From Tubiluchus corallicola (Eukaryota; Animalia; Priapulida), in assembly GCA_030141605.1 (NCBI GenBank), contig JAQGDQ010001495.1, positions 1-38,171 of the forward strand: 38,171 bases of DNA, given 5' to 3'. Shown here one piece after another: positions 1 to 24,200 of the stretch. Made by a program: the position numbers and the translations under genes. The notes under the pieces were generated by a model that was given only the letters and a program-made list of their open reading frames with translations, was not told the DNA's origin and searched no databases. Position 1 is the stretch's first letter. Each line of letters starts with the position of its first letter.

Positions 1-2640
1 CGTTACCTGTATGAAAGTAAGGTAAGTCAAAGACTACCTGTACAGTACTCTACAACAACTTCGTTACCTGTATGAAAGTAAGGTAAGTCAAAGACTACCT
101 GTACAGTACTCTACAACAACTTCGTTACCTGTATGAAAGTAAGGTAAGTCAAAGACTACCTGTACAGTACTCTACAACAACTTCGTTACCTGTATGAAAG
201 TAAGGTAAGTCAAAGACTACCTGTACAGTACTCTACAACAACTTCGTTACCTGTATGAAAGTAAGGTAAGTCAAAGACTACCTGTACAGTACTCTACAAC
301 AACTTCGTTACCTGTATGAAAGTAAGGTAAGTCAAAGACTACCTGTACAGCACTCTACAACAACTTTGTTACCTGTATGAAAGTAAGGTAAGTCAAAGAC
401 TACCTGTACAGTACTCTAAAACAACTTCGTTACCTGTATGAAAGTAAGGTAAGTCAAAGGCTACCTGTACAGTACTCTACAACAACTTCGCTACCTGTAT
501 GAAAGTAAGGTAAGTCAAAGACTACCTGTACAGTACTCTACAACAACTTCGTTACCTGTATGGAAGTAAGGTAAGTCAAAGACTACCTGTACAGTACTCT
601 ACAACAACTTCGTTACCTGTATGAAAGTAAGGTAAGTCAAAGACTACCTGTACAGTACTCTACAACAACTTCGTTACCTGTATGAAAGTAAGGTAAGTCA
701 AAGACTACCTGTACAGTACTCTACAACAACAGTACCTGTATGAAAGTAAGGTAAGTCAAAGACTACCTGTACAGTACACTACAACAACTTCGTTACCTGT
801 ATGAAAGTAAGGTAAGTCAAAGACTACCTGTACAGTACTCTACAACAACTTCGTTACCTGTATGAAAGTAAGGTAAGTCAAAGACTACCTGTACAGTACA
901 CTACAACAACTTCGTTACCTGTATGAAAGTAAGGTAAGTCAAAGACTACCTGTACAGTACTCTACAACAACAGCGTTACCTGTATGAAAGTAAGGTAAGT
1001 CAAAGACTACCTGTACAGTACTCTACAACAACAGCGTTACCTGTATGAAAGTAAGGTAAGTCAAAGACTACCTGTACAGTACTCTACAACAACAGCGTTA
1101 CCTGTATGAAAGTAAGGTAAGTCAAAGACTACCTGTACAGTACTCTACAACAACTTCGTTACCTGTATGAAAGTAAGGTAAGTCAAAGACTACCTGTACA
1201 GTACTCTACAACAACTTCGTTACCTGTATGAAAGTAAGGTAAGTCAAAGACTACCTGTACAGTACTCTACAACAACTTCGTTACCTGTATGAAAGTAAGG
1301 TAAGTCAAAGACTACCTGTACAGTACTCTACAACAACTTCGTTACCTGTATGAAAGTAAGGTAAGTCAAAGACTACCTGTACAGTACTCTACAACAACTT
1401 CGTTACCTGTATGAAAGTAAGGTAAGTCAAAGACTACCTGTACAGTACTCTACAACAACTTCGTTACCTGTATGAAAGTAAGGTAAGTCAAAGACTACCT
1501 GTACAGTACTCTACAACAACTTCGTTACCTGTATGAAAGTAAGGTAAGTCAAAGACTACCTGTACAGTACTCTACAACAACTTCGTTACCTGTATGAAAG
1601 TAAGGTAAGTCAAAGACTACCTGTACAGTACTCTACAACAACAGTACCTGTATGAAAGTAAGGTAAGTCAAAGACTACCTGTACAGTACACTACAACAAC
1701 TTCGTTACCTGTATGAAAGTAAGGTAAGTCAAAGACTACCTGTACAGTACTCTACAACAACTTCGTTACCTGTATGAAAGTAAGGTAAGTCAAAGACTAC
1801 CTGTACAGTACTCTACAACAACTTCGTTACCTGTATGAAAGTAAGGTAAGTCAAAGACTACCTGTACAGCTCTCTACAACAACTTCGTTACCTGTATGAA
1901 AGTAAGGTAAGTCAAAGACTACCTGTACAGCACTCTCCAACAACTTCGTTACCTGTATGAAAGTAAGGTAAGTCAAAGACTACCTGTACGGTACTCTACA
2001 ACAACTTCGTTACCTGTATGAAAGTAAGGTAAGTCAAAGACTACCTGTACAGTACTCTACAACAACTTCGTTACCTGTATGAAAGTAAGGTAAGTCAAAG
2101 ACTACCTGTACAGTACTCTACAACAACATTACCTGTATGAAAGTAAGGTAAGTCAAAGACTACCTGTACAGCACTCTACAACAACTTCGTTACCTGTATG
2201 AAAGTAAGGTAAGTCAAAGACTACCTGTACAGCTCTCTAAAACAACTTCGTTACCTGTATGAAAGTAAAGTAAGTCAAACACTACCTGTACAGTACTCTA
2301 CAACAACATCGTTACCTGTATGAAAGCAAGGTAAGTCAAACGCTACCTGTACAGTACTCTACAACAACTTCTTTACCTGTATGAAAGTAAGGTAAGTCAA
2401 ACACTACCTGTACAGCACTCTACAACAACTTCTTTACCTGAACGAAAGTAAGGTAAGTCAAAGACTACCTGTACAGCACTCTCCAACAACTTCGTTACCT
2501 GTATGAAAGTAAGGTAAGTCAAAGACTACCTGTACGGTACTCTACAACAACTTCGTTACCTGTATGAAAGTAAGGTAAGTCAAAGACTACCTGTACAGTA
2601 CTCTACAACAACTTCGTTACCTGTATGAAAGTAAGGTAAG
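1..2640. repeat. 61-bp minisatellite, about 43 copies (runs off the window start), overlapping the 3' end of the dynein exon
   Basis: Unit cgttacctgtatgaaagtaaggtaagtcaaagactacctgtacagtactctacaacaactt, near-identical copies. Confidence 0.97.
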
Positions 2641-2854
2641 ACTCGTGTGTGCCCTTGGGAGGTGCGTAATATTCTCCGCTACGTGAAAGTTTGTACTTCG
2701 GTTCGATGATGATCTCCTTGCAGTAGAAATCAGCCAGCATGGTCAAAAGAAGCCGTCGGTCGAGGTCGTCCGTGACACGCCCTCCGTAGTTGCATTCGCC
2801 CGTTAGGTACGTGATGGCTTTGAAAGGCACTTCGTCGTATTCGTTTATAAACAT
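2621..2854 (-). CDS. DNAH12: Dynein HC exon (234 nt, phase 0-0): [44 protein letters not shown]...[15 protein letters not shown]
   Basis: Acceptor ccttacag|ATG, donor CAG|gtaacg. Confidence 0.93.
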
Positions 2855-5800
2855 CTGTAAGGTTAATGAGAAAGTGTTAATTGCAAGTAATGAGCTAATT
2901 TGCACCTGTTACTTCTACTGCATCACATAAATAATTCAATTAATGAGATCTTACAGAAAAAAAACTTTGAATTTTAAATTCTCCGGAACAGACCGTATAG
3001 GGATGTCACAAATCTGAAATTACCGAATCTGAATCTACACCGAATCTCTCGTTCATAATAATTTTCGATTCCGTATTTTCAAATCCGGATCAAATCCAAA
3101 CATCATATTAACATAATTTTTGAATCTGGATCAAATCCAAATCACAGTTTAAAATAATTTTTGAATCTGGATTGAATCCAAATATCAGTTTAAAATAATT
3201 TTTCGAAACCGAATTAAATTCACATCTCAATTTTTCAGATTTTTCTTTCTACAGAATCTTTTTCGAATCTACACGGTTTTCAACCAAATTATAGCAGATT
3301 GGTAAGACAGCAGTATTTTTCATGAATATTACAGATGAACTATCTGACAGTAATTCTCCAATAATTGTTGTTGTTGGCATCCTTCTGTCAACGGAAGACA
3401 ATGGAATGTGCGCCAAGAGAGGACGATCTTTGAATGTCTCCAGGGTGCACGCCTGGGCAAAGTGTATTGAGATCCTGAGTTGCCCAAACAATAGGAACCC
3501 CCTCTCTTCCTCCCTGGTGTAGTCCAAAGGAAAGCGGAGCGATACGTTTGCCACCGGGTTGGCTGCAGGAGCTGCCGGAGTCAGTGAGCATGCTGCACTG
3601 GTCCGCCTTCGGGGCTCCACTCCTGATTTGGAAGGTTTACTCCTCTACACATGGCCGTTGGGTCACTTGGCCTCCTCCGCCCTCTAGCCATTGGCTGCTT
3701 GTACAGCTCCTCCGCCTAGTGTCGAGATACAGTGTGGGCATCCCGCAAGCCTACAGCACCTGATATTCCTAGGCGGTCACCCTTCCAAGCACTAACCAGG
3801 CTCTACATTGCTTAACTTCGGTGATCAGACGAGAACAGGTGTTTCAACATGATTTGGCCGTAGTCTCCAATAATAATGACCGTATTATCTAATATTATCT
3901 AAAGACTATAAATGATCTAATTATTTTGTAGAAGATTTTTTTCTGCCGACAACATAACAATATAAAAGATCTGTCAAAAAAATGCTTGGTGTGCATTTAC
4001 CTACACTCCATGAGTCCAAAATTATCAAAAAAAAACAAGGATTTCAGGATTTTGCTGAAAATTTTAAAGTTAAAGGAGCGCATAACGCTTTTGCAATACA
4101 GCACTACCAAACTGCCTCTGTAACCGAAGCTAAACCGGATTTTTTTCCAAAAGTCTCGGTCGGATCTAAGGTAACTTAGAACCTAGGTGAATCGAATCGG
4201 ATCAAAGCTTCGATTCGAGATTTGATTTTTAACCTCTGTGACAACCCTAATATGATACGTTACCATTAGCTATTCTTTAACATGTTTTACAACATAAAGT
4301 CAATGTTTAGTGTGCAAATTTTATTTGAAAATATGAAAACAGCAAAGCGTTACTAGCAGATGTTACATGGAAAAATTTTGGCTATTAAAGGATAGGTAAA
4401 AACTAGCTGCTTAATTCTACAAAGAAATTTACACTTAGGACCGCCCAATGGTATTTATGGGTGATTATACTGAGACCCAATTCAACAACATTTTTGTAAC
4501 CCCACAGTAATTAAAAAAACTGAAAATGTTTGTTCTTTATGCAGTGATTATTCAGGGGTCAGAATGACAAATTGCAAAAAACTCTGAAACAGGCCGGGGG
4601 TTTTGGGGTCACCTAGGCCCCCAATGGGGTTGAGGGGTAAAGCCCCCTTGGAAGCAGCAATTGCAATTTTGTGACCATAGAAAGCCTCTAAGTGGACTTG
4701 AAATATCAATTACCTTGTTTCATGCATAATTTAAAATACCCAACTATCAAGGATACATGATACCTAATTGTCTCAAAAACACCTAAGTACTGGCCGCTCC
4801 TATGCAAAAGTATATAAAAACTGTCTGCAATTGACTCAAATAATGCAGCACAATTGATTCTATATTTTTATACATAGAGATATACACGTGGTTACACTGA
4901 TGTGCGTGATGTAAACAAAGTGACGGCCTGCCAACTAGCGGTCAGCTTGTGAAATACTGTACTGGGTCCGTAAAAATTTTCTCAACAAATTTACGTGATT
5001 TACAAAAATGGCACTACTGGTCTTCCAAAAACTCGGTCTGACAAAAAATGGATGGAGACTAAAATAGATACTCTGTACAAGGGATAAATTAATAATACAT
5101 TTGCAAAATCATTTTATTCTATCTAGCAAAGTAGTCACAAATTTGTTTGTGTGTTTGTTTACTAGCTTGTTTATTTGTCGAGGTAAACAATCTTCAATCA
5201 GTTGCCAAGTTTGGAACGAGAAGGGTTCTAAAAAATTTAGAGTAAACTTGGATTCGAATCCAGAACTTTGTAGTGTAAGGTCACACACCCTAGTCATTTG
5301 ACTTATCAACCCACATGGCTAAAGCAGTTTAAAGTTTTCAATGAGATATTAGAAGATCTCGTAGCAAATTTCAGCGAAACACTAAAAGAACTTTGACATA
5401 GAAGCAGCTCTGCCATTGACACAGACTGAGAACTAGAGTCTGCTTAATGTAAGTTCGTCTGTTTGGGCTTTCAAAAACCAAATTCGAAGCTCCGTCAATA
5501 TTTGAAGTCCGTCTTCGTAATTTGTCTATTTTTTGTGACACTTTTGGTAATTATTCCCATGAAGGGAAAACATCAGGACCTAGCCCTTTACTTCTAGGAG
5601 AGGCATCCGGTTCACATGAAGGGAAAACATCAGGACCTAGCCCTTTACTTCCAGGAGAAACATCCGGTGCCCTCAAAGAACTTTGAGAACGTGACAGCAA
5701 AGTTAGAAAACTTGTTCAAAGGTAAGTTATAACAGTTATGTATGTATGCAGAAATCATAAGATCTGTGTATGAGTAGTATAATGAATGTTTGGGCTTTCA

Positions 5801-8800
5801 GAACCAAATTCGAAGCTCGATTAAATTTTGCTCTTTCTTTGCTCTTTATTTGCCAAAAAATGTCATTCCATCTAAACATAACAAATTAGTGCCAAAAATA
5901 GCAAAAAATAATAATAGCCAAAAGTCAATTTTACATAATCAAGAGTTATACACTGCACTGTCGCATTAATTAATACCTAGCTGTTATTTTAAACTAAATT
6001 TAAGTTTTTTAAAGTAATTAGAGAATATACATACGTTATTAGCCCCAAATCATGAGCAATTGTAAACAGATAACGACAATATCTTATCAACTTATCATGA
6101 CACGTCTTCACTTCACAGTAGGCCTCTGACCCAGATCAAGTTGATCACGTGATTAGGCCAAAAAATCACCACAAGGTGGCCAAAGCCGACAACAAGCGAA
6201 GGCAGTAAAGCATGCCAATGCAAGATTTCCAGTACATCGTGCTTACCCCCGGTTACTGCCAACTACAATACTCGACCTTGAACTTAGAGAATGATACTAA
6301 ATGCTCGTAGAGAATAAAACCGGGTCGACTCCAGCATCCAGTTTTAACAGCTATAAGGACCGAGACCGGTCCCCTATCAGGCTAGAAACAGGTAAGCTCA
6401 TTAAGGTAAATCTACGGGCACACCTGTAGTTGTCTGACGCTGATGCGGAGGTCAGAGTCATTGAAGCCGTATGGGATGTTCCATCCGAGAGGTCCAAACT
6501 TACGTCTCTCCTGTACTAGAGCGTGGAAGAAGCACAGTCCAAACAGCAGCTTCTCAAATTGCTGCAAACAAAAGATATTTAAATTTTAATTCGACTCCGT
6601 ACGGCAGGGGTGTGCGAATTATCTGACTAGCCGGGCCACATTAAACTTCCCGCAATTCCTGCGGGCCACAGGCAGTTTGATCAAGGAGCCAAGTACAGAA
6701 AGGCCTAATAACGATTTTTTTGCATCCGACCTCCGTACATCATTACTACTACACTCAAGAAACTATTTTAGAAGTTATTAAAATTTATATTACAAATCAT
6801 ATATTTCTACTTTCAGCACAGATAGTGGTAATTTCATTACAATGCATATTAGTAATGTGTATCACACAGTCTGTGTAGTACAGTGACATTAAGCTACGAC
6901 CGTCTTGTAAGGGCTAATGGCATCCGATCTAGTAGAAAAAACTACCCACACTATCTTTGGGATCGTGGCACGGACTTCAGCTGGATACACTCAATTAATC
7001 GCCCGGGCCGCACTTTCATTAGGTTGACAAATCTCTTCGCAGGCCGCACAAATTCTCTCGGCGGGCCGCAATTTGCACACCCCTGCCGTACATGAAGATG
7101 TCTTCCAGTTGTACAAAATGCACAAATAAGGGATTTTTTCCAGCTAAAATCAATTCTAAACTAAACCAGGAGATGGAGCTGGTAGTGAAAGTAAAAATGC
7201 TCGCACAGAAATTACATTTGCTCGGAAGCAATATGGTTATTTGCGTTACCGTGGCAACTACAACTCACCTGTTGTTTACCGTGGCAACCATTGAAGAATG
7301 CCGAATCAGAAATGGGATCGTTCAGGTACGACTGCATGAGGTTCTGACGGAGGCCAGTAGGGGGCTCATTTGTCATCTTGACGCCATTTTGGAGAATTGA
7401 TACTGGAAACTAGAAACAAGTATTTGTTAAATTACTAACATTATGTTTTTGGTAAAAGCGAGTTTAGTAAAACAGCGCCATCTGCAATTTACTAAACATG
7501 TCAAAAATGTTTTAACACAATTTCATACCTGCAAGATCGGATACAATGGCTGGCCTCACTGAATGAAATGACCGAGATAATCTTCTAACATAAGACACTG
7601 AACCAGCAGGAGTGTCAAACATGTCAGAGTAAAAATGTTTTTTTAACATAATTTCATACCTGCAAGATCGGATACAATGGCTGGCCTCACTCAATGAAAT
7701 GACCGAGATAATCTTCTAACGTAAGCCACTGAACCAGCAGGAGTGTCAAACACGTCAGAGCGTAAATATTTTTTAACACAATTTCATACCTGCAAGATCG
7801 GATACAATGGCTGGCCTCACTCAATGAAATGACCGAGATAATCTTCTAACGTAAGACACTGAACCAGCAGGAGTGTCAAACATGTCAGAGCAAAAATGTT
7901 TTTTTAACACAATTTCATACCTGCAAGATCGGATACAATGGCTGGCCTCACTCAATGAAATGACCGAGATAATCTTCTAATGTAAGACACTGAACCAGCA
8001 GGAGTGTCTTAACAAATGTTGTGTATAACGTTTATAATGTTAGATGATTCCAGTCAGTCACCTATCCACTTTTTCGTAAAGTCAACGTAATAAATTAATT
8101 TACCATCATCCAAACCAAAATGTTGAATTGCAGTACAGCGTAAGAATACAAAATATTAAAAATTTTTAAAAGAATAAGCAAAGCAGGCCGTACGGCGACA
8201 AACAGTATTGGACTGAATTCGACTCAGAGGGTCGAACTCCAAGATGGCATGGCTGTCTTGATATTGCGCATCATGAAGATCCATTTTACTATCGTTGTGT
8301 AACTGATTACTTAACTACAAATGTTAATTTTAATTACGAATGTTAAGCTAATTAACTAAGTTAATGTCTATAAACTAGTACCTTATACCTGTTATCGCAT
8401 GTCATTTAACTCTCATAAAATAAAACACACAAAAACTACACTGTACGGAGTTTATTATCAGCACTAATAAAATAGGGAACAAAATACACGTGCAAAAAAT
8501 AGCTAACTAACTCAGTAACAGCACTACACCCGAGGAGCACCTGTGTCTGAAATGAAGGCTGTAGTGACCTCTACACGCTTTTATACTGGCATTCCAGGTC
8601 AGCTGGCTTCTCACACCACGTGTAGGCCCAAACAAGACGTCTGGACCTACAAGAAAGGGGTGAGTCGCTGCTGACGTGGAAGCAGGGCGTGTAGAGGGTT
8701 TTACACCTGACCCGACACAGGTGCCTCCGTAACAGTGTTATACTGTTACTAGATACACGAATGAAATAAATAAAAATGACGTCAAAACTGAAGTTTGGAA

Positions 8801-11800
8801 ATGAAATGAGGCAAAAAGATAAAACTGTTATTACTCACCAGGTTTGACCTCGCTTCACTTACATGAAGCTTAAAAAATTCGTCTCAAAACTTTAACCACT
8901 TACATACTGCCCTTTTTGCATGCAGGGTTTGCGTCGGCAGTAACACACTGCATAAAACATGTAAATCTAAGCTCCTGTGATGACCGCTAGGCGCAGCCAT
9001 TTTGATTGTAGGTTGATTGAAACAAGTTTAGAAAACACTGAGTGAAGTTTGAAAAAATAATCAGAGCATTACATGTTGCTAACTAAGTAAAATTGCAAAA
9101 ATTATTGTATTTTGTCAATAAGATTAAAAAGACATTTTTCGTTAGTGAGTGGTGCACCCTGGAGGGTGAGTCAGCAGCATTTTATCAATTAGTGAAAACA
9201 TTTTAAATATTTAAATAAATTAATAATTTTCTTTTCTAGTTACGTAAGTCTTTCCAGCAGGTAAATGAAATGCTAAGTAAGATAATTTGCATGGAAAGTT
9301 TTTGGGACATAATTTCACATTGCATTTTCTTCCCCTGATTTACGTTTGCGTAGTGACGTCATGTAATGGCGCCGTTGGAACAGTACTGTGGGAGATTTAA
9401 AATGAAAACAAACAAAAATTCCTTTCAATGCGAGTAAGATAAACACATAAAATTGCTGTAAAGTAGCATAATTTTTTAAGACGATTTTTTTGAAACCTAC
9501 TTGAAGTACCTGTTTTCTCATCCTTCAAGCGAGACACCTGTCCATTTGCTTGCCAGACCACAGCTCGCCTCACTTACAAATTCCATATTCTTATATAATA
9601 CCTGTTTTCTCATCTTTCAAGCGAGACACCTGTCCATTTGCTTGCCAGACCACGGCTCGCCTCACTTACAAATTCCACATCCTTACATAGATCTCCGTTA
9701 CCTTATTTGATGGATAACTCGTCAGCCACATCCGGAACTCCGGATGAGTCGTGTCCGTCGTCAGTTCCTCGCAGATCTTCTCAAGAGCGGGCATCCAGGA
9801 GACCGCCAGATGGCAGTTCTGCAGCACAACCCAGCTGCCCTTGGCTAAGCCTTCTTGAATCATCGAGGCCGCCACTGGTCCCTGGCGGGAGAAAAACACA
9901 AGAGCAACAAATGAAAGGAGAGAATTGAATTTGTTTGCAAGAAATTGAAAAAGGTTTTTATTGAAAACCAAAGCAATAAACAGAAAGCTGACAGTAGCAC
10001 CTGTAGGCTTGTCTATATATCACATATGTGTCACATGTCATACGTGTGCATGCATAGCAAAATTGTCCTTAGTTGGTAATTAAGCTTTTTTTAGTTATTC
10101 ATGTATCCTTAATCTGCATTTCATGAGGATCATTTTGATACCAAGTTCATCGTTCTACGTTATTTCTAAGCTGAGATAATCCACGTTGAAGTTGAGGTGC
10201 AGGCTGCGCAGTGAAAAACATAATCTTGAGAAAATCACTGTTAAAGTCAGCCATTGTTTTTGTCGCGTTTCTACAAAACACTTAACAACCGCACAAATGT
10301 TGGTTGTTGCAGACTTTGCGTTGTGTTGTTTCTAAGCTGAGATAATATACATTAAAGTTGAGGTGCAGGCTGCACAGTGAAAATCAGTGTTAAAGTCAGC
10401 CATTGTTTTTTGTCGCGTCTCTACAAAACACTTAGCAACCGAACGAAAGTGTGGTTGCTATGGACTTTGCAAGAACACATTGAAGTTTTGTTTAAATCCA
10501 GTAGATGGTTCTTCCTGCTGAACATCTGGGCTTGGCAACAGGAAAAATCCCGGAGCAAAATGGCTCCTTCCACGAGCTACTACCGGAATTAGAAAGTTTT
10601 TTACAATTGCAGTACTAGTTTCTAGACAGAAAAGTGGGTACATCATTATAAAGTTACATTTTTAGTATCTTTTTCGCACTTTCTTGACAGTTTGCTGCTA
10701 GAATATTAAAATTAAATATATTTAGCGTTTATTTTTATGAAAAAAAAAATTGATCAAATTTTTGGTTCATTCTACTTTGAAGCATCATAACGTCGTTTTA
10801 ACTATGCTGATTTACGGACGGCTTTGCTTTGCAAGTGCACACTTAGAAGTATAATATCGTAGTGGTTTTGTAACAAGGATATAATAAAATCTAACGTCCT
10901 TGTTTTGGAAAATCTATCTTATGAAATAGATACGTGACAATTGTTACTGTACTGTTTACATATTTCAATTCAATTCAATTTTAATTTATTTATCTCCTTA
11001 TAATACTACAATAAAACATGATTAATAAAGAATCGCTAATAAGTTTCGAAGAACGGTTAAAATGTATAGATAGATCTACAACTAGAGAAAGGATAGCGGA
11101 AAGACAATTCAATTCAACTCAATTCAATTCCAATTTATTTACATCTTTATAATGCTACATTAAAACATGATTAATAAAGAATCTCTAATAAGTTTCGAAG
11201 AATGGTTAAATGTAACGTCGTTTTAACTGTGCGGACTGAATCTCCACTTCACATCCAAGAACATTATTGTGCAAGGTAAGCATGCGCCATGCGCCAAAGA
11301 CAGTAAGTTACTGTGATTGAGACAGCAATTGTCTACCTAGCAGCAGACGCTAGCATACAGCGTGTTATCTCAGACATGTGCGCATGGCCGCCTGCGCACA
11401 ACAGCCACAAACGCCACGCTGCTTGGGCTGTGAAGCAAGAGTGTACTTGCCTCACATGCTCTGGTTCCGCGCAAGTATAAAGAAAGAATATTATATTGAA
11501 TGTTATGGATGGACAGAAGAAAATCATTTTAATTACTCTAAATTTAAATTTATGTTGAATTGTCATCATACTGTTTTTAGTTTTGGATAGTGCTGCCATC
11601 TTCAGGTGTTCTTGTTAAAATTGTTAAATCTTTCACTTTACTGTTTAAATTTTCATTGGCTTCTACAGTCTTTATGAATGCATAATCTCTAAATCTGTTT
11701 TCACACCTAAATGATTTCACCTGTAGTTTCTGGTCACTTGGTTTTCTGCTTTTCAACATGACACTACTTCACTGTTTATGTAGACATTTCAGAATAAAAT

Positions 11801-14800
11801 CTTAAAACTAAATTTCAAGTTTTTTGGTTTCTTCAAACCAATGGATAATATTGAGAGAAGACAGGGGGTGCTGCAGTGCACGCTGACACTGGTCTAAACA
11901 AAGGACAAAAACATGTGACGATTTCACAGGAGCTACAGACCATTAAACACAACTAAATCATGCCAGCGTACCTGACCCTGTCCCAGAGAGATGGAGTTAA
12001 ACTTCCCTCCCGTGAACGCCCGGTCTTCCGCAAATTTCAGCAAGCTGGCCATGGGGTCGGCACCGGGAGACAAGATGAAGATGAGCGGGGTGCAACAGTT
12101 GGAGTCGCAGTAGCTGCGAGCAAGATCAAACGGGGGCGGTTGAATGAACTTCTGACCTAGACTGTTGATTACGAAATTTGTCACCTGCGGTATCACCTGA
12201 AAAGAAAGGTATGTTCACTTTTATGATAATGACGATGAAGATGACGATGATGATGGTGACGATAATAGTAGTAGCTTAATTTCTGATGATTGGTGCATCA
12301 CATATTATTTAAATTTTTTGCAGTAATTTGAATAGTTATCACTTTTATTACTGACAACTCTCTGAATTCTACTACAGTAAACTCTGCGTAATTCAGGGGT
12401 GTGCAAATTGCAGCCTGCGGGCCACTTGCGGCCTGCCGAGAGAATTTGTACGGCCCGGGTGATTAATTGAGTGTATCCAGCTGAAGTCCATGCCACAATC
12501 CCAAAGATAGTGCGGGTAGTCTTTTCTACTAGATCGGATGCCATTAACCCTAACAAGACGGTTGTAGCTTAATGTCACTGTACTACACAGACTGTGTGAT
12601 ACACATTAAAATGCATTGTAATGAAATTACCACTATCTGTCCTGAAAGTAGAAATATATGGTTTGTAATATAAATTTTAATAACTTCTAAAATAGTTTCT
12701 TGAGTGTAGTAGTAATGATGTACGCAGGTCGGATGCAAAAAGATCGTTATTGGGCCTTTCTGTACTTGGCTCCTTGGTCAAAATGCCTGTGGCGCGCAGA
12801 AATTGTGGGAAAATTTAATGTGGCCCGGCTAGTCAGATAATTTGCACACCCCTGGCGTAAATTGAAATTGCATAGCTCAAATTTCCGATTAACTCCAAGA
12901 ATTTCAGCGGAATGGATGAATCCTTCATTTTTCCAACAAAAACATGGCTTAACTCAACGTATATAAATCAAAATTTTGCCTAACTCAAATAAAAAATTAT
13001 GGCCCAATCAATCACAATACACGCAATTTACTTGGCTTAAGACAAAAATACAATTTATACCCTATCCCCACTGTCACATTGTTTAACAGTGTTGTGTAAT
13101 TGTTGTAACTTAAAAATGGGGTTTCGCTACATAGTTTGTTATTCTTTGTGTAACTGTCATCAAATCTTGTCGTTTATGTATAGAAGGGTTAACTTTCTGC
13201 CTTCTATTTAGCTCGCCGTCTGGAGGAGGGGTTTAGAGTTTCTATGCTGGAAAATGTTCAACATCGACTAGCTCAAAGTTTTTTCCAGTCCGGGCGGATT
13301 AGTATTATGTGGAGTTTACTGTAATTTGAAATTCATTCTCTTTACATTTAGAACATTATGTATAATTCTACATTAAAGTGGGGACTTGCTGTACCTTGTC
13401 TGGTCGCAGACAGCGCAAGACGATCATCCTCTGAAATTCAGACAAGTTTGTCTGCCACGGTTCCGGCAGCGGCGACTTGTGAGGTTCCGGGCTGTCGTAC
13501 AGTAGCTTCCAGGCGTGGATATTTCTCTCAAAATCAGACCTGCAACAAGGATGTGCGACAAAATAGTGAAGAGAAGCAAAGATCAGAGGCTAGCGGAACC
13601 GGAAAGTATATCATTAACAAGAATAAATCAAGAAAGATGAGTCACTGAACCAAGAGTAGTGTCCTAGCCAACAAAGTATGAAACTACCCAGAAGCAGTTT
13701 TTCTGGTGGCCACTCATCAACTTGATAACCTGGCCTAGTGCTGCTTAACTTGGCTCTCTTGCAATGGCAACATGACCTGCCAACAATTCATTTTGTCTTA
13801 TAAAAGCTCAAAGTGATTGAATCTGGCCTACTTTCTTCAGTTTTGCAATCTCTTTTTCTTGTAGCCTCTAATATTTGATATAAATTTGACATTTGCAATT
13901 GAAGATCTGCGCTATTGACGAACGTAAAGCGAAAGAAGAACCGACCGGAAATATTTGAACGGCTCCAAGTCGCACATCCTGCAAATCTCGTCCCAGCTCT
14001 TGTCCGACAACCATTCCGGATCCGGATTCTTTAGCTTATTTTCTAGTCCGACGCCACCTGTCAGGAAAAACATGAACTGTCCGTAATCCAACTCGTCCTG
14101 AGCCCTGAAAAAGGGAAACGTAACAGAACCGAGAAAAGCCTGGACTGCGGGATTGCTCAAACGCATGGGTATGCCTGCCATTATACGTCTTAAAGATCAA
14201 TACAGTATTACCAGACATACTCGCTCAATAGATTGTGCAGTAATTACCATACTTTCCAGACACACTTACTCCAGGGATGAGAATGACAAATTGCAAAAAA
14301 CTCTGAAAGAGGCCGGGGTTTTAGGGCCACCTAGGCAGCAACAAATTGCAATTTTGTGACCATAGAGAGCATCTAAGTGGACTTAAAATATCAATTACCT
14401 TTTTTCATGCATAATTTAAAATACACAACTATCAAGGATACATGATACCTAATTGTCTCAAAAACACCTAAGTACTGGCCGCTCCTATGCAAAAGTATAT
14501 AAAAACTGTCTGCAATTGACTCAAATAACTCCACACAATTGATTCTATATTTTTATACATAGAGATAAACACGTGGTTACACTGATGTACGTGATGTAAA
14601 CAAAGTGACGGCCTGCCAACTAGCGGTCAGCTTGTGAAATAATGTACTGGGTCCGTAAAAATTTTCTCAACGAATTTACGCGATTTACAAAAATGGCACT
14701 ACTGGTCTTCCAAAAACTCGGAATTTCGCGTATCTGCGGAAAATTCTGATCCCTGATTTACTCAACAAAAAGTGCTGTACTTTCTACTTACATTTACACA

Positions 14801-17800
14801 ATACATCGAAATTTTAAAGGTGAAATAGATGTCTTCCAATTACATAATGTTTGGATGTTTCTGAACACAGTTTACTCTAGTAGTGACCGGCTAATCAATG
14901 GACACAGTGTACTCTAGTAGTGACCGGCTAATCAATGGACACAGTGTACTCTAGTAGCGGCCGGCTAATCAATGGACACAGTTTACTCTAGTAGTGGCCG
15001 GCTAATCAATGGACAGTTTACTCTAGTAGTGGCCGGCTAATCAATGGACACAGTTTACTCTAGTAGTGGCCGGCTAATCAATGGACAGTTAACTCTAGAA
15101 GTGGCCGGCTAATCAATGGACACAGTTTACTCTAGTAGTGGCCGGCTAATCAATGGACAGTTTACTCTAGTAGTGGCTCCTAATCAATGGACACAGTTTA
15201 CTCTAGTAGTGGCCGGCTAATCAATGGACAGTTTACTCTAGAAGTGGCCGGCTAGTCAATGGACACAGTTTACTCTAGAAGTGGCCGGCTAATCAATGGA
15301 CAGTTTACTCTAGTAGTGGCCCGGCTAATCAATGGACACAGTTTACTCTAGTAGTGGCCGGCTAATCAATGGACACAGTTTACTCTAGTAGTGGCCGGCT
15401 AATCAATGGACACAGTTTACTCTAGTAGTGGCCGGCTAATCAATGGACACAGTTTACTCTAGTAGTGGCCGGCTAATCAATGGACACAGTGTACTCTAGT
15501 AGTGGCCGGCTAATCAATGGACACAGTTTACTCTAGTAGTGGCCGGCTAATCAATGGACACAGTTTACTCTAGAAGTGGCCGGCTAATCAATGGACACAG
15601 TTTACTCTAGTAGTGGCCGGCTAATCAATGGACAGTTTACTCTAGTAGTGGCTGGCTAATCAATGGACACAGTTTACTCTAGTAGTGGCCGGCTAATCAA
15701 TGGACAGTTTACTCTAGAAGTGGCCGGCTAATCAATGGACACAGTTTACTCTAGAAGTGGCCGGCTAATCAATGGACAGTTTACTCTAGTAGTGGCCGGC
15801 TAATCAATGGACACAGTTTACTCTAGTAGTGGCCGGCTAATCAATGGACACAGTGTACTCTAGTAGTGGCCGGCTAATCAATGAACACAGTTTACTCTAG
15901 TAGTGGCCGGCTAATCAATGGACAGTGTACTCTAGTAGTGGCCGGCAAATCAATGGACACAGTGTACTCTAGTAGTGGCCGGCTAATCAATGGACACAGT
16001 GTACTCTAGTAGTGGCCAGCTAATCAATGGACACAGTGTACTCTAGTAGTGGCCAGCTAATCAATGGACACAGTGTACTCTAGTAGTGGCCGGCTAATCA
16101 ATGGACACAGTGTACTCTAGTAGTGGCCGGCTAATCAATGGACACAGTGTACTCTAGTAGTGGCCGGCTAATCAATGGACACAGTTTACTCTAGTAGTGG
16201 CCGGCTAATCAATGGACAGTTTACTCTAGTAGTGGCCGGCTAATCAATGGACAGTTACTCTAGTAGTGGCCGGCTAATCAATGGACACAGTGTACTCTAG
16301 TAGTGGCCGGCTAATCAATGGACAGTTACTCTAGTAGTGGCCGGCTAATCAATGGACAATACTGTGTAACAAGTACGAGTAGTCAAACGAGTGGTCAGTG
16401 ATGACATTATGACATTTGTAAATAAATGTTAATTGAACGTGAACATTCAAATCTAAAAGAGAAACCCGACACTTACAGCTGTATGTTTGCACAGAGGAGG
16501 AAGGAAAAGAGAAGCTTGTCCTTCTCGAAAAGAGAGCGGCAGACGTTACTGTAGAGGTTATATGTGAAGTGGTCTTTCAGATATCGCAGACGACGGTCCA
16601 ATATCTTTGATTTGTTGCTGAAATAAGATACGAAAGCACTGAAGGTCCAGTTAACCCTTTCAGTCCCAAATTATTTTTTAATAAGAAAATTTTTTTTGGC
16701 TTGGTATTTTTGTTCAGTATGTCTATCTTGTTTGCACATAATAATTATTTTTTCTACCTGTGCCCGCGTGCTAAATATAGCCTGTGTCCCACGGGATACA
16801 TTGGGATTCAATGGAAGCAAAAAATGTGCTTCATTTTGCAACTGTTGATAATTTTTTTAAAGTATTTAAGACATTTAGTATGCACGCTATGCTGATCTGT
16901 ACAAAGTCGTCTCTAAAGTACTGTACCTTGCGCAGTTTTTTATGCTATGTAGATTTTCTAGTTTGCCATTTTATCACCATTTTTAGTCTATTGTTATTGG
17001 CTTAAATCAAAATAACTATTAACAGATCAAAATAACTGTCAGTTTTAAAATTTTATTAATTTCAAAGGCAGAAAATATTCTCGTATCCCACGGGATACAA
17101 CGGGTATGAAAGGGTTAACATTCGAGCATTCATTCTCTGACTGGTGCATTATTGGTACTATTTTAGATAAACTTTATTTATTTTAACTATATCAACATAC
17201 AGTAATATTACTGATCAGAGTATTCACTGTGTGATAAATACATTTTAGTTAAGAACAGATACATGCAACTGGTTATCAAGAATGCAGTGATGCCATCTAT
17301 GATAGCGAGGATTCACAATTGACTAAAGAAAATTATAAAAAGAAAGAAAAGAAAGAAAAACAGTAAAATGAAACACTTAGCAACAGTTTATAGCTGACAC
17401 TTACGCGTTGAGTCGAAATGCAAACCAAAGGGTTAAACCAAAAATGACTGAATCACGACTGACTTAATAACAGCAATCAAGAAGAGAAAAACAAAATGAA
17501 ACCGAAGCCAAACATGGCCGAGAACGCACTGCCCTCGAATCTACGAGAACAGGTTACACGCTCGAGAAAATAGGCCTAGAAAACTGAGCTCTGATTGGCC
17601 CACATAATTTTACATTCAATACATTAGATTTTCACAAAGCAAGTGACGGTTTAATCCTGCGACCTGCCACACTACAGTTACATAGATAGTTAGTTAAAAA
17701 ACACAAGTAATTCATTAGTTAACACTTAAAATCTAAATATACAAAGCTCGTAGAGTACAGAAGTGATACCAGAAACAAGTATCAATGTACATCATTCTAT

Positions 17801-18115
17801 TAGTTATACAAAAGTATGATTGATCAATAACTGGTGTTTTATTCAAAAGTCCAAAATTCAGAATAATTCAGGTTACAAATCAGTATGTAATTATACATAC
17901 AGTCACTTAGCAAAATGGTACCAAACACTTTATGCATATTGGTACCATTTTGCAATATGTTAGTGCCAGCATATTCTTCAGCATTGCCATGGTGAACTTG
18001 ACAACAGTGTTGCAGCAGATGCCAGCGCTGCTGCTGCAGCTACCAACATCGCTGCACCACAGCAGCAGTAGTAGGAACAACAGCAGGAGCGAAACACTAC
18101 AACAACAACAACCGC

Positions 18116-18203
<88 letters not shown>

Positions 18204-18210
18204 ACAGCAG

Positions 18211-18241
<31 letters not shown>

Positions 18242-21200
18242 AAGATCAATAACAGCAACTTCGACGACATTATCAACATGGTACTATGGTGATGGTAGTA
18301 GCAGTAGTGGTGGCGGCAGCAGCAGTAGTAGTTGAGAACAACAAGGACAACAACAAAGACAAAGACAAGGAAAACGATGACGACGACGACGACTGCAACG
18401 ATGACAACATTATCATCATGGTGCTATGGCGATGGTAGTAGCAGTAGTAGTTGACAACGACAAGGACAGCGACAAAGACAACAACAACCACGATAATAAC
18501 ATAAACGATAACAGAAAACAAAATACCTAAAAATACTGTAGCAAGAGAACTAATATATGAAACCCGACCATTAATGCAAATCATGCAGATAAAGATTAAT
18601 ACATTTGCTAATGTACATCATTTTTGCTTACAAAAGATTAATAGTCAACAAGACGTCAAATCACTACAGCGTGGTAGTATGAATGCTTAGCCTTTGTATC
18701 AACTTATTGTAAAAGCCAATAGCTTTCAGTTGGAATTTATTATATATTTTAATAGTTCCATTTTAAATCCTTGTTCAGGAAATAAACTTTTTTTATAGTT
18801 CATTCATATGCAACGTTTACGTTTTTTGTTCCACATTTAAAATGTTTGCGGAAGTTGGAATTGTACACTGTAATTAGGTGCTGCCATCTATGTGATAATC
18901 CTATTACATTCTACCAGCTGATTTACCTTCAGTATAATTGTATGGTCCAGTGACTACATACACACTGGTTCTCTCGCTATCTAACATTAATGGTTGTTGT
19001 GAAGCCTGTGCAACTCTGCATAGGTCAAGTTTATTGTACATTGTAAGTAGGTGCTGCCATCTATGTGCTAATCCTGTTACATTCTACCAGCTGACTTACC
19101 CCCAGTATAATTCTATGGTTCAGTGACTACATACACACTGGTCCTCTCCCTATCTTAAATTAATGGTTGTTGTGAAGCCTGTGCAACTTTGCATAGGTCA
19201 AGTTTATTGTACATTGTAAGTAGGTGCTGCCATCTATGTGCTAATCCTGTTACATTCTACCAGCTGACTTACCCCCAGTATAATTCTATGGTTCAGTGAC
19301 TACATACACACTGGTCCTCTCCCTATCTTAAATTAATGGTTGTTGTGAAGCCTGTGTAACTCTGCATAGGTCAAGTTCTATACCTGTATACTGGCTGTGA
19401 AACAGGTTTTACTGACTGTTTTTGCTTTCTAGTTTTTGCTCAATGTTCAGTGCAGCAGTTTTGCTACTCGTGTTTTCTGTAGTTCAATAAACACTTTTCT
19501 GTTGTGTGCAGTGCAAATATTTATTATAGATTTTTGGTTCCTATTCATACTTCACTGTGTCTAAACTCAATCATAACAAAGTGACTGAACAACAACTGCA
19601 AAAATGACTTTCACATTGTATGTTTCAGTGTGTCTTAACAAATAAAAAATAAAAGCAAAAATAAACAAATAAACAAACAAAAGTTTTAAACACACAGACC
19701 TTTTATATGAATTCTGGAACTTACCTTTCGTGGATAGAATTAATGTACAGGTTAACGAACCAGGTGAGTGAGTATTGATACATGGGATCAATGTTCGCCA
19801 TGTCAGCTATTGAAAAGAACAAGATTGACGAATGTTTGGCAATCGGACGGTAGCCCATTCTAGACTGCTCTATCTTCTCTTCCGTTACTTCCGCTATCTA
19901 TAGAAAGATGAGGATGGTAAAGCGCACTGTGACGTGACTGATGCTGATGATCCGCGCAGGAGTCGAACACCTGACAAAAAGTCTATGCTTTCAACGGTTC
20001 CGAAAGTGTGTTCACACTAATTTAGAGTGGTGTGATAATGCCATTAGATCACTGCATTAGAGAACACACTAATCGAAAGTGTGTTCACACTAATTTAGAG
20101 TGGTGTGATAATGCCATTAGATCACTGCATTAGAGACCACACTAATCGAAAGTGCGTTCACACTAATTTAGAGTGGTGTGATAATGCCATTAGATCACTG
20201 CATTAGAGAACACACTAATCGAAAGTGTGTTCACACTAATTTAGAGTGGTGTGATAATGCCATTAGATCACTGCATTAGAGTACACACTAATCGAAAGTG
20301 CGTTCACACTAATTTAGAGTGGTGTGATAATGCCATTAGATTACTGCATTAGAGTGCACACTAATCGAAAGTGTGTTCACACTAATTTAGAGTGGTGTGA
20401 TAATGCCATTAGATCACTGCATTAGAGTGCACACTAATCGAAAGTGCATTCACACTAATTTAGAGTGGTGTGATAATGCCATTAGATCACTGCATTAGAG
20501 TACACACTAATCGAAAGTGCGTTCACACTAATTTAGAGTGGTGTGATAATGCCATTAGATTACTGCATTAGAGTACACACTAATCGAAAGTGCGTTCACA
20601 CTAATTTAGAGTGGTGTGATAATGCCACTAGATCACTGCATTCGAGAATCCAATTTCATTAGGTGTTTATCCTCACTAGCCAGGTAAAGAACTCAACGAC
20701 TGCCAGCAAAAAAGTAGTATAAACGATTATGCTATGCGTCGCTTGTCTGCCTCTAATTTCATGCAACGGCGTGAGAAGTTGTTCAAACAACATTAACACT
20801 TATTTAACTGAGTAAGCAAAGCGAATAAGTCAATTATTAGTTAAGAAAATTGGAGAAAGACTCATTGTATTAGTTTAACAAAATGCTAGCTGTCCAATTT
20901 TGAAGTGTTAACCAGGGCTGGCATGGGCCAAGGATTTACTGAACCAGTTAGTTGGTTAATTTTTTTATCGGTTAACTGTTAACCAGTTAACAGATCTACG
21001 CAACATCGGTGACCCTTTGTAATTTGATGACTAGATCATTGGAGAACCAAATAAGTAAGAAATTTACAACGCAAACATATAAAGTAAAACTTTAGAGGAA
21101 CGTGTTCAAATAAGAGTGAAAATTTTACACATAGAAAGTGAAAAGTCTCTGTTTGTAAAGATGCCAAGCTTTGTTGAACTAAGTTTAACACTTTCCTACA

Positions 21201-24200
21201 TAGAAAGTGAAAAGTCTCTGTTTGTAAAGATGCCAAGCATTGTTGAACTAAGCTTAACACTTTCCTACATAGAAAGTGAAAAGTCTCTGTTTGTAAAGAT
21301 GCCAAGCATTGTTGAACTAAGCTTAACACTTTCCTACATAGAAAGTGAAAAGTCTCTGTTTGTAAGGATGCCAAGCATTGTTGAACTAAGCTTAACACTT
21401 TCCTACATAGAAAGTGAAAAGTCTCTGTTTGTAAGGATGCCAAGCATTGTTGAACTAAGCTTAACACTTTCCTACATAGAAAGTGAAAAGTCTCTGTTTG
21501 TAAAGATGCCAAGCATTGTTGAACTAAGTTTAACACTTTCCTACATAGAAAGTGAAAAGTCTCTGTTTGTAAAGATGCCAAGCATTGTTGAACTAAGCTT
21601 AACACTTTCCTACATAGAAAGTGAAAAGTCTCTGTTTGTAAGGATGCCAAGCATTGTTGAACTAAGCTTAACACTTTCCTACATAGAAAGTGAAAAGTCT
21701 CTGTTTGTAAGGATGCCAAGCATTGTTGAACTAAGCTTAACACTTTCCTACATAGAAAGTGAAAAGTCTCTGTTTGTAAAGATGCCAAGCATTGTTGAAC
21801 TAAGCTTAACACTTTCCTACATAGAAAGTGAAAAGTCTCTGTTTGTAAGGATGCCAAGCATTGTTGAACTAAGCTTAACACTTTCCTACATAGAAAGTGA
21901 AAAGTCTCTGTTTGTAAGGATGCCAAGCGTTGTTGAACTAAGCTTAACACTTTCCTACATAGAAAGTGAAAAGTCTCTGTTTGTAAGGATGCCAAGCATT
22001 GTTGAACTAAGCTTAACACTTTCCTACATAGAAAGTGAAAAGTCTCTGTTTGTAAAGATGCCAAGCATTGTTGAACTAAGCTTAACACTTTCCTACATAG
22101 AAAGTGAAAAGTCTCTGTTTGTAAGGATGCCAAGCATTGTTGAACTAAGCTTAACACTTTCCTAGGTAGAAAGTGAAAAGTCTCTATTTGTAAGGATGCC
22201 AAGCATTGTTGAACTAAGCTTAACACGTTCCTAGGTAGAAAGTGAAAAGTCTCTATTTGTAAGGATGCCAAGCATTGTTGAACTAAGCTTAACACTTTCC
22301 TAGGTAGAAAGTGAAAAGTCTCTGTTTGTAAAGATGCCAAGCATTGTTGAACTAAGTTTAACACTTTCCTACATAGAAAGTGAACAGTCTCTGTTTGTAA
22401 AAATGCCAAATGTTGTTGAACTAAGCTTAACACTTTCCTACATAGAAAGTGAAAAGTCTCTGTTTGTAAGGATGCTTAACGTTGTTGAACTAAGCTTAAC
22501 ACTTTTCTACATAGAAAGTGAAAAGTCTCTGTTTGTAAGGATGCCAAGCATTGTTGAAATAAGCTTAACACTTTCCTACGTAGAAAGTGAAAAGTCTCTG
22601 TTTGTAAGGATGCTTAACGTTGTTGAACTAAGCTTAACACTTTTCTACATAGAAAGTGAAAAGTCTCTGTTTGTATGGATGCCAAGCATTGTTGAACTAA
22701 GTTTAACACTTTCCTACGTAGAAAGTGAAAAGTCTCTGTTTGTAAGGATGCAAAGCATTGATGAACTAAGTTTAACACTTTCCTACATAGAAAGTGAAAA
22801 GTCTCTGTTTGTAAGGATGCCAAGCATTGTTGAACTCAGCTTAACACTTTCCTACACAGAAAGTGAAAAGTCTCTGTTTGTAAGGATGCCAAGCATTGTT
22901 GAACTAAGCTTAACACTTTTCTACATAGAAAGTGAAAAGTCTCTATTTGTAAGGATGCCAAACATTGTTGAACTAAGCTTAACACTTTCCTACATAGAAA
23001 GTGAAGTGTCTCTGTTTGTAAGGATGCCAAGTGTTGTTGAACTAAGTTTAACACTTTCCTGCATAGAAAGTGAAAAGTCTCTACAGTAAGGATGCCAAGC
23101 ATTGTTGAACTAAGTTTAACACTTTCCTACATAGAAAGTGAAAAGTCTCTGTTTGTAAGGATGCCAAGCATTGTTGAACTAAGTTTAACACTTTCCTACA
23201 TAGAAAGTGAAAAGTCTCTGTTTGTAAAGATGCCAAGCATTGTTGAACTAAGTTTAACACTTTCCTACATAGAAAGTAAAAAGTCTCTGTTTGTAAAGAT
23301 GCCAAGCGTTGTTGAACTAAGCTTAACACTTTCCTACATAGAAAGTGAAAAGTCTCTGTTTGTAAAGATGCCAAGCATCGTTGAACTAAGCTTAACACTT
23401 TCCTACATAGAAAGTGAAAAGTCTCTGTTTGTAAAGATGCCAAGCGTTGTTGAACTAAGCTTAACACTTTCCTACATAGAAAGTGAAAAGTCTCTGTTTG
23501 TAAAGATGCCAAGCTTTGTTGAACTAAGTTTAACACTTTCCTAGGTAGAAAGTGAAAAGTCTCTGTTTGTAAGGATGCCAAGCATTGTTGAACTAAGTTT
23601 AACACTTTCCTACATAGAAAGTGAAAAGTCTCTGTTTGTAAGGACACCAAGCTTTATTGAGCTAAGCTTAACACTTTCCTACATAGAAAGTGAAAAGTCT
23701 CTGTTTGTAAGGATGCCAAGCATTGTTGAACTAAGCTTAACACTTTCCTACATAGAAAGTAAAAAGTCTCTGTTTGTAAAGATGCCAAGCGTTGTTGAAC
23801 TAAGCTTAACACTTTCCTACATAGAAAGTGAAAAGTCTCTGTTTGTAAAGATGCCAAGCTTTGTTGAACTAAGTTTAACACTTTCCTAGGTAGAAAGTGA
23901 AAAGTCTCTGTTTGTAAGGATGCCAAGCATTGTTGAACTAAGTTTAACACTTTCCTACATAGAAAGTGAAAAGTCTCTGTTTGTAAGGACACCAAGCTTT
24001 ATTGAGCTAAGCTTAACACTTTCCTACATAGAAAGTGAAAAGTCTCTGTTTGTAAGGATGCCAAGCATTGTTGAACTAAGCTTAACACTTTCCTACATAG
24101 AAAGTGAAAAGTCTCTGTTTGTAAAGATGCCAAGCATTGTTGAACTAAGCTTAACACTTTCCTACATAGAAAGTGAAAAGTCTCTGTTTGTAAGGATGCC

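What the first reader, a model, noticed from the sequence alone, without database searches (positions are those of the whole stretch)
1..2640. Satellite built from an exon/intron junction: about 43 tandem 61-nt GT...AG mini-introns (possible recursive-splicing array)
Seen: on the gene's sense strand the unit reads GTAACGAAGTTGTTGTAGAGTACTGTACAG GTAGTCTTTGACTTACCTTACTTTCATACAG. It is the first 41 nt of the intron plus a copy of the last 20 nt of the exon (2621-2640), so the real donor CAG|GTAACG is repeated about 43 times. Each unit starts with the donor and ends in a branch-like TTGAC/CTTAC, a pyrimidine-rich tract and CAG directly abutting the next GT. Known: YAG|GT zero-length-exon junctions define recursive splice sites, and tandem duplication of AG|GT is a recognised route to intron gain. 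Inference: using any downstream donor would add GTA ACG AAG TTG TTG TAG (in-frame stop), but excising whole units as mini-introns regenerates the exact exon end. The array could therefore be self-correcting, which would explain why it is tolerated in a conserved gene.
Basis: partly seen in the sequence, partly recalled or inferred. Interest (0 to 1): 0.85.

Follow-up and report, generated by a model that had tools for sequence, protein, structure and literature searches.

The report
Splice-junction repeat in dynein intron
The last 20 bases of one exon of an animal's ciliary motor gene (DNAH12) and the first 41 bases of the next intron are copied at least 43 times in a row, each copy carrying a splice start and a convincing splice end, but repeats of this build are already known from lancelet and human genes and the cell likely uses mainly the first signal, so this is probably an ordinary new example.

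Summary
The array is real: 43 whole units (40 of 61 nt, 3 of 58 nt) follow the donor of a DNAH12 exon and run off the window. Each unit is 41 intron bases plus the exon's last 20. This is, however, a known class: lancelet 'mirage' repeats, the human F7 VNTR (only the first donor used) and UBC/VCX3A dual-site arrays, where the 'spliced out, so tolerated' idea is already in print. This scan has noted such arrays in other genomes. Against a working 61-nt ladder: donor-to-branch distance is 41 nt, the gene's introns are 406 nt or longer, variants do not avoid the signals (p = 0.40), 38% of the window is tandem repeat, and another intron carries 62 decoy acceptors with no regenerated donor. No RNA could be tested. 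One open lead: four rare residues make this exon end acceptor-like. Verdict: new member of a known kind; occasional recursive use remains possible.

The parts
1..2620 (-). Tandem array, 43 whole units plus 6 nt of a 44th; continues beyond the window start
2560..2620 (-). Unit 1 (equals the consensus): donor, in-frame stop at codon 6, internal CAG|GT at +30, branch-like TTGAC (A at +41, -21), copy of the exon end
2615..2620 (-). Authentic donor, phase 0 (7 of 9 matches to the recalled U1 consensus; the same hexamer starts the intron after exon 9881..9702)
2621..2640 (-). Last 20 nt of the exon, shared with every unit end; itself scores as a strong acceptor
2621..2854 (-). DNAH12 coding exon (78 aa, Pfam PF18198 region; human DNAH12 residues 3555-3631)
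1892..2559 (-). Units 2-12, the exon-proximal part of the array, where most variant units lie; units 2-3 are partly echoed by 11-12
2621..30090 (-). Host gene in the window: 11 DNAH12 exons in one open frame of 640 aa; 10 complete introns of 406-6932 nt

Best explanation
This is a minisatellite that likely arose from a short local duplication across the donor of a DNAH12 exon and then expanded, and the cell likely splices mainly from the first donor while the copies stay mostly silent. Shown: structure, coding origin of the 20-nt part, old intron position, signal scores. Inferred: birth by slippage or microhomology repair (3 nt, CTT, could be shared at the breakpoint), growth by slippage and unequal exchange (recurring variant blocks, more variants at the edge), exon definition of the 234-nt exon with first-donor preference as in F7, and removal by nonsense-mediated decay of the rare messages that use a later donor. 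The acceptor-like unit end is a by-product of the exon's codons; it would make any stray use of an array acceptor harmless to this exon end, but it is not needed to explain tolerance.
For: The 20-nt part encodes the family-invariant Y, F and I (117-118 of 118 homologues), so it was copied from exon to repeat. The intron position is old: 111 of 119 exon-sized homologous frames continue with V, as a GT donor read in frame gives. Variants: 7 of 30 signal positions against 11 of 31 others vary, Fisher p = 0.40; chance that the four GT/AG letters all stay unchanged is 0.24. Units 2-13 differ from consensus by 2.25 letters on average, units 14-43 by 0.7, as described for mirage edges. 14,397 of 38,171 bases lie in 14 arrays of period 15 or more; a donor-spanning unit among them is expected 0.44 times by chance. 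The gene carries other decoys: 62 top-5% acceptor-like sites in the 69-nt array with no YAG|GT, and 4 YAG|GT sites in the 131-nt array. Precedents: F7 uses only the most upstream donor for 1 to 12 units; Adh3, globin and troponin C mirages splice normally.
Against: No RNA of this species was tested, so first-donor use is argued by analogy with mammals and lancelets. In two of the five human precedents (6-16, CBS) the next two pseudo-donors are also used. The exon end under the array is the only one of 9 AG-ending exon ends in the window that scores as an acceptor, and 0 of 100 other exonic AGs score as high, which is what a 'tolerated because removable' filter would predict. All eight letters of the two AG|GT sites are unchanged in 43 units (p = 0.049, chosen after the fact). 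Human dual-specific sites are used more often than expected.
Confidence: 0.7

Rival explanations
1. The array is partly removed in stochastic recursive steps of two or more units through its dual-specific AG|GT sites, each step restoring the donor, and this minor route helps the expansion to be tolerated.
For: Unit end at the 99.6th percentile as acceptor, branch-like word at -21, regenerated donor 7 of 9. A two-unit step has 102 nt from donor to branch point, above the roughly 50 nt limit. UBC splices between tandem dual sites; human introns equal to a multiple of the surrounding repeat are 8.4-fold enriched. A duplicated AGGT segment was spliced out at 6-16% in human cells.
Against: No sign that variants avoid the signals. 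Arrays lacking acceptors are tolerated too. Repair after use of a later donor would need an acceptor right under the exon junction complex, which masks such sites in fly and human. The same acceptors could also take the upstream exon's donor and skip this exon, so they are not purely protective.
Confidence: 0.19
2. One reading: units are cut out one at a time as 61-nt mini-introns, as a regular route.
For: Each unit has GT, branch-like word, pyrimidine tract and CAG; 60-70 nt introns are modal and fast in Drosophila.
Against: 41 nt from donor to best branch point, whereas 46 nt abolished splicing in human extract; 10 of 10 complete introns of this gene in the window are 406 nt or longer; three units are only 58 nt; each copy's donor and branch region are predicted to pair in a small hairpin.
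Confidence: 0.03
3. The array is a measurable burden: later donors (premature stop) or array acceptors (in-frame skipping of the 78-residue exon) are used in a sizeable share of transcripts and lower DNAH12 output.
For: 86 extra AG|GT sites; pseudo-donors are used in 6-16 and CBS; exon-end acceptors promote exon exclusion in human.
Against: The 640-aa frame is open and 76-78% identical to the nearest animal DNAH12s; known mirages give no aberrant mRNA.
Confidence: 0.06
4. The array, or its attachment to the exon, is an assembly artefact.
For: The window ends inside the array; no listed contig bridges 2644-2755; the DNA runs may be the assembly's own sample.
Against: Units carry patterned variants and 58-nt forms; contigs of 2 of 3 runs show the 61-nt head-to-tail joint, and summed depth over the unit is far above the unique flank (155 against 3-12 in X1); the 20-nt identity with the coding end ties the unit to this place.
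Confidence: 0.02

Closest known systems
Lancelet 'mirage' minisatellites (Adh3, globins BflGb6 and BflGb9, troponin C, PGBD5). Seen: passages of PMC3087553 and PMC3902484; the original Adh3 paper was not seen
   Same: Tandem copies of an exon-intron boundary, unit length inside the reported 10-160 bp, many units with AG/GT signals, edge units less homogenised
   Different: At least 43 units against 3-6 in BflGb6; every unit has two AG|GT sites and one strong acceptor; normal splicing was shown by RT-PCR there and is untested here
Human F7 intron 7 37-bp VNTR, with 6-16, CBS intron 13, lamin B2 and PDGF intron 4 repeats. Seen: PMC1557585 parts 1 and 3 of 6
   Same: First unit spans the donor, so the exact donor is repeated down the intron
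   Different: F7 has 4 exon bases per unit and TGG|GT, so no acceptor; 5-9 units; first-donor scanning was tested in mammalian cells only
Dual-specific splice-site arrays (human UBC, VCX3A). Seen: passages and Discussion of PMC10809524
   Same: The same AGGT in each unit can be donor or acceptor, so removing whole units restores the sequence; proposed to make expansions less harmful
   Different: There the repeats are within the gene's coding or exon structure and RNA shows the splicing; here the array lies at the start of an old intron and use is not shown
Recursive splice sites and distal-exon recursive sites. Seen: passages and section 10 of PMC10156609, passages of PMC8184009
   Same: YAG|GT with an upstream tract and branch point that regenerates a donor; the exon end itself fits the distal-exon type
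   Different: Known sites are single and shown by lariats; that study discarded sites in repeats or within 100 nt of annotated sites
Intron gain by duplication of an AGGT segment (ATP2A1). Seen: PMC3265369 part 1 of 4
   Same: A duplicated AG|GT segment forms a removable GT...AG piece
   Different: No new intron position arises here; the intron position is ancestral

Membership tests
Mirage / junction-spanning minisatellite | Head-to-tail repeat whose unit spans an exon-intron boundary of the host gene | tested here: met
   exon identity
Mirage / junction-spanning minisatellite | Tandem-repeat turnover: homogenised interior, diverged edge, recurring variant blocks | tested here: met
   (exon-proximal edge only; the far edge is outside the window)
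Mirage / junction-spanning minisatellite | Copy number varies between alleles or cells | not testable with these tools
   only one sample, as short contigs
Mirage / junction-spanning minisatellite | Normal mRNA is still made from the authentic site | not testable with these tools
   no RNA to lay; open frame upstream only
Recursive splice site | Acceptor-grade sequence directly followed by a donor | tested here: met
   (small model built from the gene's 11 acceptors)
Recursive splice site | Splicing intermediates or lariats at the site | not testable with these tools
   needs nascent or lariat RNA
Recursive splice site | Signals kept by selection | tested here: inconclusive
   no depletion of variants in signals, p = 0.40; all 8 AG|GT letters unchanged, p = 0.049 after the fact; no relative closer than 78% protein identity
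61-nt mini-intron | Donor-to-branch distance and length above the organism's minimum | tested here: inconclusive
   41 nt: under the human limit, length inside the fly mode; this species' minimum unknown
Dual-specific splice-site array (UBC type) | RNA junctions joining the same AGGT in different units | not testable with these tools
   no RNA
Intron gain by tandem duplication | New intron at a position that is intronless in orthologues | tested here: not met
   111 of 119 exon-sized homologous frames show a GT-type read-through at the same place

The most novel reading that the evidence does not exclude
The array and the exon evolve as one unit: concerted evolution plus selection for removability has rewritten the last codons of a conserved dynein exon (D, I, E, K to S, L, T, Q) into a strong splice acceptor, and the array is taken out in recursive steps, a natural ladder of dozens of identical recursive sites. 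That would be a repeat reshaping protein sequence to make itself spliceable.
Probability: 0.07. Interest if true: 0.7.

Novelty: new member of a known kind. Interest (0 to 1): 0.22.

Why it matters
As it most likely stands, it is one more junction-spanning minisatellite, and shows again that exon definition copes with dozens of exact donor copies. Its one useful feature is that each unit is a complete, strong acceptor-donor site, which makes it a clean natural substrate to ask whether first-donor scanning holds outside mammals and whether dual sites in a repeat are used recursively. If recursive use and a repeat-driven change of the coding end were shown, it would link satellite turnover, splice-site choice and protein evolution in a way I did not find described.

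Tried and rejected
No whole genome is held for the window, so no genome-wide intron-length or array census, and the far end of the array and the next exon were not seen. Run search: no RNA holder listed; this says nothing about expression. DNA contigs gave no cover at 2644-2755 in 3 of 3 runs; the tool warns that holes prove nothing. Depth was not read as copy number. My first exon set had three boundaries off by a base or two (5 stops) and was corrected (0 stops). Unit as a dispersed satellite: no other copy in the window and no loose end from the unit among the pieces listed (48 pieces not shown). Unit as an old 61-nt intron that overwrote the exon end: rejected because the shared 20 nt encode the invariant Y, F, I. 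Unit as a dimer of 30-mers: halves align better than 1988 of 2000 shuffles, but mostly through the shared GTA and TACAG ends; left open. Structured RNA: z = -0.44 for 324 nt; the donor hairpin is shared by true site and copies, and 2 of 10 other donors are about as paired (0.86, 0.97); no Rfam match in the array. Sister-species test of the exon end: three protein searches found no relative above 78% identity over the 640 aa, so the organism was not placed; earlier scan notes call it a probable priapulid, which I did not test. PMC2812944 was opened only as an outline and is not used. Searches of earlier findings for recursive use in such arrays and for notes near this place returned nothing. 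No supplements were read; those of PMC10809524 (introns in tandem repeats) and PMC3087553 (mirage alignments) could hold closer cases.

Full report
Observation. The array is as described. On the minus strand 43 whole units follow position 2621, and a 44th is cut by the window start. Forty are 61 nt, three are 58 nt, 20 of 43 equal the consensus, and all start GT and end CAG. The last 20 nt of the unit equal the last 20 nt of the exon at 2854..2621. Contigs of 2 of 3 DNA runs contain the head-to-tail joint; they are one sample, possibly the assembly's own, and none listed bridges array and unique exon.

Host gene. The exon matches human DNAH12 residues 3555-3631 best (E 3.5e-33). Eleven exons between 30090 and 2621 give one open frame of 640 aa, with 10 complete introns of 406-6932 nt. 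The nearest proteins are 76-78% identical and come from molluscs, cnidarians and echinoderms alike, so the animal was not placed. The donor at 2620 is in phase 0 and old: 111 of 119 exon-sized homologous frames continue with V at this point, as a GT read in frame gives. So the array sits in an ancestral intron and is not an intron gain. Reading past the donor gives VTKLL and a stop.

Signals. With a small model built from the gene's 11 acceptors, the unit end scores 6.7, the 99.6th percentile of 850 intronic background AGs and above 10 of 11 leave-one-out scores of real acceptors; the internal AG is at the 67th. The main donor matches the recalled U1 consensus at 7 of 9, the internal one at 6 of 9; real donors range 5-8. 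Nine of 11 exon ends finish in AG, so AG|GT alone is automatic for such a duplication, but only this exon end is acceptor-like (others 15th-78th percentile), and 0 of 100 other exonic AGs score as high. In human, 10.2% of cassette exon ends pass a weak acceptor threshold and 1.62% the median (PMC10156609 section 10), so this is uncommon but known. The best branch word lies 41 nt from the donor; human extracts need about 50 and fail at 46 (PMC6692369 passages), while 60-70 nt introns are modal in Drosophila (PMC5762160 passages). Single-unit excision therefore depends on an unknown species limit; two-unit steps would have room.

Is there a mark of selection? Eighteen of 61 positions vary. Seven of 30 signal positions vary against 11 of 31 others (p = 0.40); the four terminal GT/AG letters would all be spared by chance with p = 0.24, all eight letters of both AG|GT sites with p = 0.049, a test chosen after looking. 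Variants concentrate near the exon (2.25 against 0.7 differences per unit) and recur in blocks (units 2-3 and 11-12, 16-17 and 31-32), which fits ordinary repeat turnover. The window is rich in arrays: 14 with period 15 or more, picked from TRF's 41 rows after dropping microsatellite-type rows, overlapping sub-periods and one two-copy 22-mer, cover 14,397 of 38,171 bases; one of 14 overlaps an exon, against 0.44 donor-spanning arrays expected by chance. Of seven other arrays scored, the 69-nt array holds 62 top-5% acceptor-like sites with no YAG|GT, the 131-nt array four YAG|GT sites with good acceptor and donor scores, the 173-nt array three donor-like sites, the 92-nt pair three weak YAG|GT, and three arrays nothing. 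The gene thus carries repeated decoys that could not self-correct.

A lead in favour of the bolder reading. The exon ends in ESYLTFIQ where the family has EDY(I/V)EFIK. The final Q occurs in 0 of 119, 1 of 119 and 1 of 118 homologues in three sets, the T in 2 of 119 and 0 of 118 in two. With family-type residues no synonymous coding scores above -2.4 as an acceptor; with these residues the median is 4.2 and 5% reach the observed score. Against over-reading: 12 of 401 seven-residue windows depart as much (binomial p = 0.026), the equally rare H lies outside the shared 20 nt, and ESYLTFIK occurs in 3 of 119 longer homologues. Only a sister species can decide.

Mechanism. Most likely (0.7) a short duplication across the donor was amplified, the exon is defined from its own acceptor to the first donor, and later donors are rarely used, their products carrying a premature stop. 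This step is inferred from F7, where only the most upstream of identical donors is used whatever the number of units (PMC1557585 parts 1 and 3), and from lancelet mirages that splice normally (PMC3087553 and PMC3902484 passages). It is weaker for stray use of a later donor, since the rescue acceptor would lie under the exon junction complex, which masks such sites (PMC8184009 passages), and the acceptors could equally allow in-frame skipping of this exon. A minor recursive route in steps of two or more units is given 0.19, the strict 61-nt ladder 0.03, a measurable burden 0.06, artefact 0.02.

What is known. Junction-spanning repeats are named ('mirages') and several human cases are listed in PMC1557585. 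Tandem dual-specific AGGT sites that are spliced, and the idea that such expansions are tolerated because they can be spliced out, are in PMC10809524 (passages and Discussion); PMC3265369 (part 1) shows a duplicated AGGT segment spliced at 6-16%. I found no paper showing recursive removal of an intronic junction-spanning array in listings; the library lacks most subscription journals. The scan's own notes hold 40 findings with the same search words in at least 23 genomes, and the 8 shown are arrays of this kind; these are unchecked and served only as a lead to the name.

Verdict. Observation confirmed, interpretation partly supported, new member of a known kind, interest 0.22. The boldest reading not excluded, a repeat that has reshaped a coding end into an acceptor and is removed recursively, has probability about 0.07.

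Noticed in passing
window 7503-8008, minus strand: 131-nt array (3.8 copies) ending 94 nt before the next exon; each of 4 copies holds an acceptor-like stretch followed directly by a 7-of-9 donor (CAG|GTATGA), not copied from an exon junction of this gene.
   Followed up: partly
window 21129-26600, minus strand: 69-nt array of about 79 copies filling most of a 6.9-kb intron; 62 sites score in the top 5% as acceptors, none regenerates a YAG|GT donor.
   Followed up: partly
window 1-2640, plus strand: The opposite strand carries a consensus-like donor (AAG|GTAAGT) 42 times; on the sense strand the same letters pair with the donor in a predicted 6-bp hairpin, -4.3 kcal/mol at the true junction and -6.4 at a copy.
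   Followed up: partly
window 9507-9689: Two-copy 92-nt duplication starting 13 nt after the donor of exon 9881..9702, not including the junction; that intron starts with the same donor hexamer as the array.
   Followed up: no
window 3748-3865, minus strand: Full-length 5S rRNA match (85.6 bits) at the head of a high-copy element spanning about 3390-3865, likely a 5S-derived SINE.
   Followed up: no
window, 14 arrays: 38% of the window is tandem repeat of period 15 or more, and 5 of 14 arrays lie within 120 nt of an exon edge. Drosophila Y-linked dynein genes with satellite-filled introns are a loose parallel (search listing only).
   Followed up: no
window 18860-19377, minus strand: 173-nt array (3 copies) with a donor-like site of 7 of 9 in each copy.
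   Followed up: no
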